Positions 8,377-10,311 of a stretch of DNA of 64,000 nt are shown here, one piece after another. The DNA is from a virus (lineage: Duplodnaviria; Heunggongvirae; Uroviricota; Caudoviricetes): IMG/VR virus record IMGVR_UViG_3300046318_000589; one strand, given 5' to 3'. The notes under the pieces are model-generated. The model had not been told where the DNA came from. It saw nothing but the letters and a program-made list of their open reading frames with translations, and did no database searches. Every line of letters starts with the position of its first letter. The stretch's first letter is position 1. The position numbers and the translations under genes are program-made.

Positions 8377-8390
8377 TTATATGATAATTA

Positions 8391-8436
8391 GTTCACCCAA
8401 GATGTTTACGTCTAAAACAAGTTTCTTGATTTTTTA
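8391..8436 (+). mobile_element. orphan copy of the IS607-type TnpB 3' end/right end
   Basis: 45 of 46 nt are identical to the minus-strand sequence at the 3' end of TnpB-1 (12150-12195), gttcacccaagatgtttacRtctaaaacaagtttcttgattttt. Confidence 0.6.
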
Positions 8437-8463
8437 TATAATAATTAGGAAAAGAAAATTTAA

Positions 8464-10311
8464 TTAGGAAAAACCTGTTATTGGGGTGGTTTGATACGAA
8501 ATCGACCCCAAGCCACCACCACCAACAGCTACAGCATCAATCTCACCAATAGTAGAAATCTCATCACTGCCGATCCTAAGGAGCTGATTAAATTTAGGAT
8601 TTAAATCTAAAGAACCTGGACGCAAATAAACCCTTATTTCATCAGTAACATCAGGTGTAAAATTCTTCAATACTATAAATCCTCTACTTTTAATCAAATA
8701 TCCCACATCAGTTAATAATGTTAATATTTCATTATTCACTTTTCTATAGAGGAATAATTGTCTTTTATCAATATCATTTGTTGGCTTATCGCCTAGAAAA
8801 TATGTTTCCCCATTTATAACGATTGGGGTGGATGATACGGTAAATTCTGTGGAATTTGTATCGAATGATGCGTTGGTAAAGCTCAATTCAAAATAATTTT
8901 TATTATTATTCACGGGTGTTATAATTTTATACATTAAACTACTTACTACGTTTGATGTAATTGATGGATTTGATGCGTCAATTAATGTTAATAAATTTGA
9001 ATAACGAAACACCCCACTAAATTTTTGTAATACAGTATTATTATAATTCATTACAACTGCATATATTAAATTATTCAAGTCAAGTATTGAAAGGGAAGTA
9101 TTATTTGAATTATATTTATAATCAATTTTAAGACTGATATTTGTATAATCGGGGTTTACTATTACGGGTGTTATTGTTCCAACCTGTTTAGGTTTTAAAA
9201 TACGGTTAATTATTTCGTCTTTTTCTATGAGGGTTAAATTATCTCTTAAATATGGTTTGATTGATATGTATGTTTTACCATATTCAGGTGTGGGTAAATT
9301 CTCCCCACCATATACAGTAATTGTTTCAATGTCATCGAATTGGTTGGATATAATTGCAAGATAATCTGTTTCAGTAACACATCTATCTTGAGCAGTAAAT
9401 AATCTTTTACTATTAAAGCGGATTGTTTCAATATCTTCTCTATCTAAACCACTTGCGGATATTGCCACCACAGATAGGGTAATGTCATTATTACCCCCAA
9501 TCGCATCAGATATGGAGAATGTCTTTGCACCATTCACTTCCAATCCCTTAGTTGAAATATATTGTGCATGAATGACGTTATTATTTTCTAATTTCTTTCC
9601 CATAACATCATCACCAAATGATATTTGGAATAGTCCGTCATAATTTTCATCAATAAAATAAATTTGCGAATCAATATTAATTTCCCGTAAACTTGTGTAT
9701 CTTGTATAAACAACTGAATTTAACGCTGAATCATGCTCCTTTACTGTTATCAATAATGTGTTGGTGTCTATATTATAATCAGGAATAACAAATACAGGAT
9801 AAGTATCTCTATCATCATATACAAAATATGTATCCTTTAAAACGCCCTGTACAATTTCAATATTAGTAAAGCGGAATTTTCCGTCCAATGATTTACTTGA
9901 TGAATAACTTTGATTTGTTACAAATGGATATTCCGTATTGTTTATTGTTGTTGTAAAGCGTGTACCTTTTGGTAGAATTAATGTATTTGAAACGCCTATT
10001 GGATTATTAACGGTTATATTTACTACAGCTTTTGACGCTATTTTTGAACGAGGTTTATACCCTAGAGCAGATGCACGAGTAACAACATTCCCCCTAAGTT
10101 GTGCTGATTCTATATTTGTTTCGTTAAAGTTAATATAAGCATTAAGAGCCATAATATGTGTGGAATAACTAAGCGTATCAAGTAAAATGTTGAGGTTTGA
10201 CCCTTCAAAATTAAAATCTTGATAAGTGCTTTTACTGGAGAGATATTGTTTGAAAGATTCCTTTATCTCAGAAAAGTCAAGTTTTTTAGGGTCAATTCTT
10301 GTTTTAGCCAT
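8464..10311 (-). CDS. baseplate wedge subunit, T4 gp6-like
   Basis: KQYLSS...DFNFEGSNLNILLDTLSYST and RCVTETDYLAIIS match T4 gp6 blocks (DYDFEGSRLNVLCDLLAYNT and RCVTATDYDTFVS). Length is 615 aa. Confidence 0.75.
   Translation of the reverse strand: MAKTRIDPKKLDFSEIKESFKQYLSSKSTYQDFNFEGSNLNILLDTLSYSTHIMALNAYINFNETNIESAQLRGNVVTRASALGYKPRSKIASKAVVNITVNNPIGVSNTLILPKGTRFTTTINNTEYPFVTNQSYSSSKSLDGKFRFTNIEIVQGVLKDTYFVYDDRDTYPVFVIPDYNIDTNTLLITVKEHDSALNSVVYTRYTSLREINIDSQIYFIDENYDGLFQISFGDDVMGKKLENNNVIHAQYISTKGLEVNGAKTFSISDAIGGNNDITLSVVAISASGLDREDIETIRFNSKRLFTAQDRCVTETDYLAIISNQFDDIETITVYGGENLPTPEYGKTYISIKPYLRDNLTLIEKDEIINRILKPKQVGTITPVIVNPDYTNISLKIDYKYNSNNTSLSILDLNNLIYAVVMNYNNTVLQKFSGVFRYSNLLTLIDASNPSITSNVVSSLMYKIITPVNNNKNYFELSFTNASFDTNSTEFTVSSTPIVINGETYFLGDKPTNDIDKRQLFLYRKVNNEILTLLTDVGYLIKSRGFIVLKNFTPDVTDEIRVYLRPGSLDLNPKFNQLLRIGSDEISTIGEIDAVAVGGGGLGSISYQTTPITGFS

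What the first reader, a model, noticed from the sequence alone, without database searches (positions are those of the whole stretch)
8380..8464. Orphan 45-bp copy of the TnpB 3' end/right end between the gp6 and PAAR genes, flanked by duplicated promoter motifs
45 of 46 nt at 8391-8436 are identical to the minus strand of 12150-12195. The single difference (A to G) converts a U-A pair of the AGATG-TTTA-CATCT hairpin into a U-G wobble when read on the + strand, so the structure is preserved. The fragment lies between two CTAATTA promoter motifs; the upstream one, CCTAATTATTATATAAAAA, is identical to the start of the homing-endonuclease leader. It may be a footprint of a former IS insertion or excision, a target of TnpB-guided homing, or a stand-alone regulatory RNA.
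Basis: seen in the sequence. Interest (0 to 1): 0.55.

Follow-up and report, generated by a model that had tools for sequence, protein, structure and literature searches.

The report
Transposon-end scrap between two baseplate genes
A 46-base piece copied from near the end of a transposon living in this phage sits inside a 102-base patch that pushed apart two normally overlapping baseplate genes; it looks like a recombination scar, not a working element.

Summary
The repeat is real. Window 8389-8434 (+) matches the reverse complement of 12145-12190 at 45 of 46 positions, with none expected by chance. The source is the 3' end of tnpB in an IS607-type element, IS1 (12126-14042), which interrupts a NAMPT gene.

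The empty site was found. In every relative, PAAR overlaps or abuts the gp6 stop. This phage instead carries a 102-nt insertion (8362-8463), identical in 10 contigs, and PAAR now starts with ATT.

The insertion is a mosaic:
- a 23-nt promoter-like block identical to the 5' edge of two homing-endonuclease cassettes;
- the IS1 fragment;
- a second promoter-like block.

Short shared sequences mark the junctions.

The fragment is not a true right end. A second TnpB element fixes the IS1 right-end boundary at 12126, and the fragment lacks the last 19 nt. It keeps only half of the terminal hairpin and folds no better than shuffled sequence. Neither IS1's nor IS2's guide matches near it, and it is not a widespread terminator.

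Best reading: a non-functional scar of illegitimate recombination that uncoupled PAAR from gp6. Relatives carry a similar left-end scar.

The parts
8389..8434 (+). Orphan fragment. It covers the last 12 sense codons of IS1 tnpB (VHPRCLHLKQVS), the TGA stop and 5 nt beyond, plus 3 nt of the preceding Val codon. 45 of 46 nt are identical to the reverse complement of 12145-12190. The one difference is G8410.
8435..8441 (+). Weak 7-nt extension of the match (TATATAA against CATAGAA, 5 of 7). It overlaps promoter-like block A and is probably not IS-derived.
8431..8453 (-). Promoter-like block A, TTTTCCTAATTATTATATAAAAA. It is 23/23 identical to 44282-44304 (-) and 22/22 identical to 58439-58460 (+), which are the 5' edges of two homing-endonuclease cassettes.
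8374..8391 (-). Promoter-like block B, CTAATTATCATATAAAAT. It is a 17/19-nt direct repeat of block A. The same CTAATTATCATA motif lies 25-26 nt upstream of the gp6 start and of the start at 16549.
8362..8373 (-). AAGGTTCATAAA, a short leader with a possible ribosome-binding AAGG 8 nt before the PAAR start.
   Evidence: read from the sequence
8454..8463 (-). Spacer TTAAATTTTC between the gp6 stop and block A. TTTTCCTAAT occurs at the gp6 end and again at the start of block A.
8362..8463 (-). The whole 102-nt lineage-specific insertion between the gp6 stop and the PAAR start. It is absent from all relatives examined.
8086..8361 (-). PAAR gene, 91 aa, intact and colinear with the 91-aa PAAR of relatives, but with ATT where relatives have ATG.
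8464..10311 (-). gp6-like baseplate wedge gene. In relatives its stop overlaps or abuts the PAAR start.
12126..14042 (-). IS1, the source element. It is IS607-type, with serine-recombinase TnpA (13367-13945) and TnpB (12150-13376), and is inserted in a NAMPT gene.
12126..12165 (-). The 40-nt right-end module AAAACAAGTTTCTTGATTTTTCATAGAAATTTGTAACTAT, 100% identical to 56779-56818 (+). It forms the terminal hairpin. The orphan has only its first 21 nt.
55487..56818 (+). IS2, a TnpB-only element (TnpB2 at 55580-56794) with IS1-type left and right ends. It is used here to fix the IS1 right-end boundary.

Best explanation
The 46-mer is a dead scrap of the resident IS607-type element IS1. It lies in a 102-nt mosaic patch (8362-8463) that arose in this phage lineage by illegitimate, short-homology recombination or template switching at the gp6/PAAR junction. 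Transposase action did not create it.

What is shown:
- Relatives have gp6 and PAAR overlapping (TAATG) or abutting.
- This lineage has the patch, and it is fixed in the population.
- The patch is built from sequences present elsewhere in the same genome: the 5' edge of the homing-endonuclease cassettes, 46 nt from near the IS1 right end, and a standard CTAATTAT-type promoter-like block.
- The pieces meet at shared short sequences: TTTTCCTAAT, a run of A's, and CTA.

What is inferred:
- The favoured route is a short templated patch. Copying of the promoter block switched into IS1 at the A-run, then switched back at CTA, which duplicated the promoter block around the fragment.
- The fragment lacks the right-end tip and the 3' arm of the terminal hairpin. 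It therefore cannot serve as a transposon end or as a guide-RNA gene.
- Its practical effect is indirect. The patch broke the gp6-PAAR translational coupling. PAAR is left with an ATT start behind its own promoter-like block and an AAGG.
For: Empty site:
- 10 contigs with 90%-identical gp6 have PAAR overlapping the gp6 stop.
- Four more distant relatives (58-72% gp6 identity) have 0-11 nt between the two genes.
- L004 aligns colinearly with the window at 81-85% DNA identity on both sides and lacks only window 8356-8462 at this junction.

Fixation: window 8040-8500 is 100% identical in 10 contigs from about 10 data sets.

Mosaic make-up and junctions: (46 nt from IS1; 23 and 22 nt from the endonuclease cassette edges).

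Source and direction: the sequence encodes the TnpB C-terminus in IS1, L002 and L003, and the G8410 change is unique to the orphan.

Not a functional end:
- The right-end boundary is fixed at 12126 by the 40-nt identity with IS2, and the orphan lacks the last 19 nt.
- The 3' ends of IS1 and IS2 fold far better than shuffles (z = -3.98 and -10.4), whereas the orphan does not (z = -0.6 and -0.4).

Precedent in the same phage group: L004-type relatives carry a 43-45-nt IS607 left-end scar exactly where natV is cut after codon 36 and the rest of the NAD module is deleted.

IS607 excision is scarless, so the transposase would not leave this (PMC10690162).
Against: - No intermediate state was found. 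The nearest relatives are about 81-85% identical in DNA, so neither the order of events nor the route (short patch or decayed full insertion) can be shown.
- The two promoter-like blocks differ at 2 of 19 positions, while the fragment differs from IS1 at 1 of 46. That sits awkwardly with a single duplicating event, unless block A was later converted by the endonuclease-cassette copies.
- The junction homologies are short and A/T-rich in a 30% G+C genome, so some could be coincidence.
- Fixation across many samples is also compatible with a selected function.
Confidence: 0.55

Rival explanations
1. Decayed full insertion. A complete IS1 copy once sat between gp6 and PAAR, with tnpB on the + strand. 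Later deletions removed the left end, tnpA and most of tnpB on one side and the 19-nt right-end tip on the other, leaving 46 nt.
For: - IS607 elements are clearly active in this genome. There are three TnpB-bearing elements in 64 kb.
- Relatives show an IS end left behind at a deletion junction.
- The orphan matches the resident IS1 lineage (G in CAAGTTT) rather than L002 or L003 (A).
Against: - It needs at least three events: an insertion and two separate truncations.
- In the relatives' scar the transposon tip is intact. Here the tip is missing.
- The junction has no left-end remnant.
- All 18 contigs of this population, of which 10 were displayed, and all relatives lack a full copy here.
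- A 1.9-kb antisense insertion between two coupled late structural genes would probably be costly.
Confidence: 0.22
2. Functional antisense element. The fragment is transcribed on the - strand, from block A or by read-through from gp6, as part of the PAAR leader. It is 45/46 complementary to the tnpB1 mRNA 3' end and presumed guide-RNA scaffold, and 21/21 complementary to that of TnpB2. It could therefore damp TnpB activity, or tie PAAR expression to it.
For: - Orientation and complementarity can be read directly from the sequence.
- Block A is identical to the promoter-like edge of two endonuclease cassettes.
- The arrangement is fixed across samples.
Against: - There are no expression data.
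- Nothing is conserved outside this one population, so selection cannot be tested.
- The one substitution weakens rather than preserves the duplex (a C-A mismatch).
- A scar would look the same.
Confidence: 0.08
3. Import as a unit. The 102-nt block was assembled elsewhere, in another phage or locus, and arrived by homologous exchange during co-infection, for example during repair of a homing-endonuclease cut.
For: - The neighbourhood attracts endonuclease genes. L015 and L017 carry a SegE-like gene right after PAAR.
- This genome has four paralogous endonuclease cassettes.
- PAAR is more diverged from L004 (about 66% amino-acid identity by my count of the alignment) than gp6 is (90%).
Against: - No donor context was found in INPHARED, IMG/VR, GTDB or JGI metagenomes.
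- DNA identity to L004 is similar on both sides of the junction, 81% and 83%.
- This only moves the question of origin elsewhere.
Confidence: 0.1
4. Working transposon part. The fragment is a solo right end, a truncated guide-RNA gene, a TnpB homing target, or an intrinsic terminator.
For: - It overlaps the region where TnpB guide RNAs are encoded, at the 3' end of tnpB and the right end (PMC10690162).
- It retains 15 of 16 nt of the motif TTCTTGATTTTTCATA, which also occurs inverted in the IS2 left end.
Against: - It lacks the last 19 nt of the right end and half of the terminal hairpin.
- There is no left end nearby.
- The guides of IS1 and IS2 have no match near the site.
- No terminator-like site overlaps the fragment and there is no Rfam family.
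- Its fold is not significant.
Confidence: 0.03

Closest known systems
IS607-family insertion sequences (IS607, IS1535, CboIStron) and their right end with overlapping guide RNA
   Same: The source element has the family's gene pair, a serine-recombinase TnpA and a TnpB. It has no terminal inverted repeats, G-rich (NGG) sequence abutting the left end, and a structured 3' end of tnpB overlapping the right end (PMC6188088, PMC10690162).
   Different: The orphan is only an internal 46-nt piece without the transposon tip. The right ends of IS1 and IS2 end in ...AACTAT with no GG at the junction, unlike the GG termini described for IS607 and IS1535 (PMC6188088). No match at E<=5 to any relevant Rfam family, RAGATH-18 included, at the IS1 3' end.
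Solo or partial IS remnants left at rearrangement junctions
   Same: It is a short IS-derived piece at a lineage-specific indel. The sister lineage has a left-end remnant at a 4.3-kb deletion junction.
   Different: Here both sides of the piece are truncated. It is embedded between two copies of a phage promoter-like block rather than next to a deletion.
Templated ('filler') insertions made by microhomology-mediated repair or template switching
   Same: The patch is a mosaic of short pieces, each with a donor elsewhere in the same genome. The pieces are joined at 3-10-nt shared sequences, and the flanking block is duplicated.
   Different: The mechanism is inferred from the anatomy only. No intermediate or experimental evidence is available.
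PeSL mobile promoter/stem-loop cassettes of T4-type phages (Arbiol et al. 2010, PMC2839356)
   Same: Short repeated promoter-containing blocks occur at gene boundaries of a T4-like genome. They coincide with insertion, deletion and replacement sites.
   Different: The blocks here carry a CTAATTAT...TATAAA motif, not the sigma-70-like promoter plus terminator of PeSLs. Recombination between them was not demonstrated.
Free-standing homing-endonuclease cassettes of T4-like phages (seg/mob type)
   Same: Block A is identical to the 5' edge of two of the four paralogous endonuclease cassettes in this window. Relatives carry a SegE-like gene next to PAAR.
   Different: No endonuclease gene, or fragment of its leader, is present in the patch.

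Membership tests
IS607-family element (the source, IS1) | Serine-recombinase TnpA adjacent to TnpB | tested here: met
   Pfam Resolvase (E=3.6e-17) at 13367-13945. OrfB_IS605 and Cas12f1-like_TNB at 12150-13376.
IS607-family element (the source, IS1) | GG dinucleotide at both termini and at the target (PMC6188088) | tested here: inconclusive
   All four left-end junctions read NGG|TAT. The right-end junctions read AACTAT|CC and AACTAT|GA, with no GG. TAT is shared by both ends, so the exchange site may differ in this subgroup.
Solo IS607 right end (the orphan) | Contains the transposon tip, i.e. the recombination site at the right-end boundary | tested here: not met
   The boundary is fixed at 12126 by the 40-nt identity between IS1 and IS2. 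The orphan matches only up to 19 nt before it.
Solo IS607 right end (the orphan) | Subterminal transposase-binding repeats | tested here: inconclusive
   The orphan keeps TTCTTGATTTTTTATA, 15/16 of a motif present in the right end and inverted in the IS2 left end. Binding is untested.
TnpB guide RNA (omega/reRNA) gene | Complete structured scaffold at the tnpB 3' end, running to the right-end boundary and followed by a guide | tested here: not met
   The IS1 3' 135 nt folds with z = -3.98. The orphan covers 46 nt of it, its breakpoints lie in two hairpin loops, the 3' arm of the terminal hairpin is missing, and its fold gives z = -0.6.
TnpB homing target (vacant donor joint) | Sequence matching a resident guide, next to the adjacent motif | tested here: not met
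   The 18-nt sequences flanking the IS1 and IS2 right ends have no match near 8300-8500 at up to 3 mismatches. The adjacent motif itself was not determined.
Non-autonomous miniature derivative (both ends, no genes) | Left and right ends both present | tested here: not met
   BLAST of the IS1 and IS2 left ends finds nothing in 8300-8500. The AT-rich resemblance of 8362-8391 to the left end and tnpA leader is no better than chance hits elsewhere.
Intrinsic terminator | G+C-rich stem followed by a T-run, and recurrence at gene ends | tested here: not met
   None of the sites the scan reports in 8000-8700 overlaps the fragment. The sequence is absent from IMG/VR and GTDB, with one chance hit in JGI metagenomes.
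Templated insertion at a rearrangement junction | Lineage-specific insertion, donors elsewhere in the genome, short homologies at junctions | tested here: met
   Empty site in all relatives. Donors at IS1 and at the endonuclease cassette edges, with shared TTTTCCTAAT, an A-run and CTA at the joins. The process itself cannot be tested with these tools.
Known RNA family (Rfam 15) | Covariance-model match | tested here: not met
   Only sub-threshold chance hits to snoRNA models (E = 3-5) in 7900-14200.

The most novel reading that the evidence does not exclude
The PAAR leader carries a phage-fixed 46-nt antisense to the tnpB1 mRNA 3' end and guide-RNA scaffold. It is also antisense to 21 nt of the TnpB2 right-end module. 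Transcribed in late infection, it would act as an anti-guide RNA that restrains the phage's own TnpB nucleases, or it would link production of the baseplate spike tip to transposon activity.
Probability: 0.06. Interest if true: 0.6.

Novelty: new member of a known kind. Interest (0 to 1): 0.3.

Why it matters
The fragment itself is an ordinary kind of object, a dead piece of an insertion sequence. Its value lies in what it shows about this phage.

- It documents, with a clean empty site, that IS607/TnpB elements in an uncultured T4-like phage leave short end-fragments at rearrangement junctions. Here the junction is between two core baseplate genes. In the sister lineage it is where an NAD-salvage module was lost.
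- A tightly coupled gene pair can survive being split, with PAAR left on a non-ATG start.
- The fragment led to a TnpB-only element that shares both ends with IS1. That element fixes the IS1 right-end boundary.

If the antisense reading were true, it would be a natural regulator of a TnpB guide RNA.

Tried and rejected
- Megablast of both loci against INPHARED phages found no match.
- Pattern scans for the 28-mer and for the 24-nt right-end core found nothing in IMG/VR or GTDB genomes. JGI metagenomes gave one hit, inside an unrelated 505-aa ORF, which is a chance match.
- gp6 relatives in IMG/VR: only one hit at 30% identity, of no use.
- The Rfam scan found nothing.
- The promoter/terminator consensus scan was at chance level.
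- Guide-match searches found nothing.
- I considered that the PAAR-proximal part (8362-8391) might be a left-end or tnpA-leader remnant, which would make the patch a miniature IS. It is in the wrong orientation relative to the right-end piece. BLAST finds no left-end match, and the resemblance is the general CTAATTAT...AAAG promoter-like consensus also seen before gp6 and the gene at 16549.
- I considered a 5-nt target duplication (TTTCC at both edges). It would imply an ancestral gp6-PAAR fusion, which no relative shows.
- I considered that ATGATAATTAG on the + strand (8381-8391) is a homing-endonuclease start codon remnant. It is better explained by the near-palindromic CTAATTAT motif.
- I considered an assembly artefact. 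The region is identical in 10 independent contigs.
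Full report
**Observation.** The 45-mer at 8390-8434 (+) occurs once more in the window, at 12145-12189 (-), with one mismatch. No match appeared in 100 dinucleotide-preserving shuffles. BLAST and the repeat finder give 46 nt at 45/46 (8389-8434 against 12145-12190). A weak extension runs to 53 nt at 50/53. The mismatch is G8410 against A12169.

**Source.** The copy at 12145-12190 is the end of a 408-aa ORF (12150-13376, -) with Pfam OrfB_IS605 and Cas12f1-like_TNB domains. It overlaps by 10 nt a 192-aa serine resolvase gene (13367-13945, -). 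This is an IS607-type element, here called IS1.
- It splits a NAMPT gene. The N fragment is 11899-12129 and the C fragment is 13974-14798, with roughly 125 residues missing by my estimate from the Pfam model coordinates.
- Two independent copies of the same IS, with TnpB 90% and 87% identical, were recovered as roughly IS-length contigs, L002 and L003.

**Where the right end really is.** A BLAST of the insertion against the window turned up a third partial copy.
- A second TnpB gene, TnpB2 (55580-56794, +), has the Cas12f1-like_TNB domain but no BLASTP similarity to TnpB1.
- It ends in the same 40 nt as IS1: AAAACAAGTTTCTTGATTTTTCATAGAAATTTGTAACTAT. Positions 56779-56818 match 12126-12165 at 100%.
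- The flanks then diverge, so the right-end boundary of IS1 is 12126.
- This element, IS2, also has an IS1-type left end, GG|TATAATATAACTTC..., but no tnpA. It looks like a non-autonomous partner of IS1.
- The left ends of IS1, IS2, L002 and a scar in relatives align over about 45 nt. Each is preceded by NGG.
- The orphan contains 25 nt specific to IS1 plus only the first 21 nt of the shared 40-nt module. The last 19 nt, including the tip, are missing.

**Structure.**
- The last 135 nt of IS1 fold well (z = -3.98). They form three hairpins: GGGTG...CACCC, AGATG-TTTA-CATCT and ACAAGTTTCTTGA-TTTT-TCATAGAAATTTGT.
- The IS2 3' end folds even better (z = -10.4).
- The orphan begins in the loop of the first hairpin and ends in the loop of the last. 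It keeps only the 5-bp middle hairpin.
- On either strand it folds no better than shuffles (z = -0.6 and -0.4), and its minimum-energy fold pairs differently from that hairpin.
- Rfam gives nothing, and no terminator-like site overlaps the fragment.
- The T-A to T-G change is real. However, IS1, L002 and L003 all have A, so it is a single derived substitution in the orphan. It says nothing about selection.

**The empty site.** No cultured phage is close. Megablast found nothing, and the best gp6 match by tblastn is about 33%, to Methylophilales phage Melnitz and cyanomyoviruses. A protein search with gp6 did find metagenomic relatives.
- In ten contigs with 90%-identical gp6, the 91-aa PAAR gene overlaps the gp6 stop (TCC TAATG CCT...).
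- In four relatives at 58-72% identity, the two genes are separated by 0-11 nt.
- L004 aligns colinearly with the window at 81-85% DNA identity and lacks only window 8356-8462 at this junction.
- The window therefore carries a lineage-specific insertion of 102 nt (8362-8463).
- The PAAR ORF behind it (8086-8361, -) is intact and colinear with the relatives' 91-aa protein. It hits Pfam PAAR_motif at E = 6.5e-21, but it begins with ATT where relatives have ATG. Gene callers therefore miss it.
- The 461 nt around the insertion are 100% identical in ten contigs from about ten data sets, including a 146.7-kb contig. The arrangement is real and fixed in this phage population.
- IS1 in NAMPT is present in every contig that spans that site.

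**Anatomy of the insertion, read on the - strand in the direction of gp6 and PAAR.**
1. gp6 ...TTT TCC TAA
2. TTAAATTTTC
3. TTTTCCTAATTATTATATAAAAA (block A)
4. ATCAAGAAAC...GGGTGAA (the IS1 piece, antisense to tnpB)
5. CTAATTATCATATAAAAT (block B)
6. AAGGTTCATAAA
7. ATT TCC GCA... (PAAR)

- Block A is 23/23 and 22/22 identical to the 5' edges of two of the four paralogous homing-endonuclease cassettes in the window.
- Block B is a 17/19-nt direct repeat of block A. It has the CTAATTATCATA form that lies 25-26 nt upstream of the start codons of gp6 and of the gene at 16549.
- Related forms of the motif precede the gene at 6870 and tnpA of IS1. The motif is conserved upstream of gp6 in L004.
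- The joins fall in sequence shared by both partners. TTTTCCTAAT is both the gp6 end and the start of block A. A run of A's joins block A to IS1. CTA joins IS1 to block B.

**Interpretation.** IS607 transposases excise without a scar and recombine at the transposon tips (PMC10690162, PMC6188088). The transposase would therefore not leave an internal 46-nt piece with neither tip.
- The piece cannot act as an end, because it has no tip.
- It cannot act as a guide-RNA gene, because the scaffold is incomplete.
- It is not a homing target, because the guide-equivalent flanks of IS1 and IS2 have no match nearby.
- The mosaic make-up, the short homologies at the joins and the duplication of the promoter-like block fit illegitimate recombination or template switching. 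That process would have copied a short stretch of IS1 into the junction.
- The same phage group offers a precedent. In all six L004-type relatives checked, natV is cut after codon 36 by a 43-45-nt IS607 left-end remnant, and the remaining 4.3 kb of the NAD-salvage module is gone.
- I cannot distinguish a one-step short patch from the decay of a full IS1 insertion, because no intermediate genome was found. The patch route needs fewer events and explains the missing tip, so I favour it.

**Consequence.** The insertion uncoupled PAAR from gp6 and put it behind its own promoter-like block and an AAGG, with an ATT start. Whether blocks A and B are active promoters is inference from their position and conservation only.

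**The reading I cannot exclude.** On the - strand the fragment is part of the PAAR leader. It is complementary to the tnpB1 3' end and presumed guide-RNA scaffold at 45 of 46 positions, and to 21 nt of the TnpB2 module. An antisense effect on TnpB is therefore possible. There is no evidence for it, and the only substitution creates a mismatch in that duplex.

**Comparison with known systems.**
- The source is an IS607-family element in gene content, left-end flank and structured right end.
- Its right end lacks the GG described for IS607 and IS1535.
- The orphan fails the defining tests for a solo end, a guide-RNA gene, a miniature derivative and a terminator. It meets those of a templated insertion at a rearrangement junction.
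- The repeated promoter-like blocks recall the PeSL cassettes of T4-type phages (PMC2839356), but they have a different motif.

**Verdict.** The feature is correctly recognised as IS-derived, but it is not a right end and most likely has no function. It is an ordinary kind of scar in an interesting genome.

Noticed in passing
window 8086-8361 (-): The PAAR gene is intact and colinear with relatives, but it starts with ATT instead of ATG. Gene callers miss it in every contig. The region is identical in 10 contigs, so this is not a sequencing error.
   Followed up: yes
window 55487-56818 (+): IS2 is a TnpB-only element. Its TnpB2 (404 aa) has no BLASTP similarity to TnpB1. Yet it carries an IS1-type left end and a right-end module 100% identical over 40 nt. 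It is probably mobilised in trans by the IS1 transposase. Its 3' 129 nt fold with z = -10.4.
   Followed up: partly
window 49405-51230 (+): A third IS607-type element, IS3, has TnpA (202 aa) and TnpB3 (405 aa). TnpB3 is 71% identical in DNA to tnpB1 over 948 nt, but the 3' end differs. Its boundaries were not determined.
   Followed up: partly
window 11899-12129 and 13974-14798 (+), IS1 at 12126-14042: IS1 interrupts a NAMPT (nadV) gene, and roughly 125 residues (my estimate from the Pfam model coordinates) of NAMPT are missing between the two fragments. The insertion is therefore associated with a deletion. It is present in every contig that spans the site.
   Followed up: partly
L004 1662-1706 (also L005, L006, L009, L010, L011): In the 90%-identical sister lineage, natV is cut after codon 36 by a 43-45-nt IS607 left-end remnant. 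The rest of the NAD module (window 10522-14797) is absent. A TTGACA-17-TATAAT promoter-like site follows the scar.
   Followed up: yes
window 12126 and 56818 (right-end junctions); 14042-14044 and 55485-55487 (left-end junctions): All left-end junctions read NGG|TAT, but the right ends finish ...AACTAT with no GG, unlike the GG termini described for IS607 and IS1535. TAT is shared by both ends, so the exchange dinucleotide may differ in this subgroup.
   Followed up: no
window 17221-17960 (-), 43265-44310 (-), 46982-47789 (-), 58410-59244 (+): There are four paralogous homing-endonuclease cassettes with NUMOD3 motifs. Each starts with a CTAATTA...TATA block followed by a leader hairpin. The hairpin arms differ between copies in what looks like a compensating way (GCCAAC/GTTGGC against CCCAC/GTGGG).
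   Followed up: partly
window 6883-6889, 10330-10336, 13964-13970, 16569-16575 (all -): CTAATTAT-type motifs lie 19-26 nt upstream of start codons, always on the gene's strand. The motif is conserved upstream of gp6 in L004. It also precedes tnpA inside the left end of IS1 and of L002, which suggests the IS is adapted to phage expression signals.
   Followed up: partly
window 8076-8083 (-): An exact T4 late-promoter consensus, TATAAATA, lies 15 nt upstream of the start of the gp53-like baseplate gene (7210-8061).
   Followed up: no
L015 2834-3187 and L017 1857-2210: More distant relatives carry a SegE-like GIY-YIG endonuclease gene immediately after PAAR on the opposite strand. This neighbourhood is therefore a recurrent landing place for mobile genes.
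   Followed up: no
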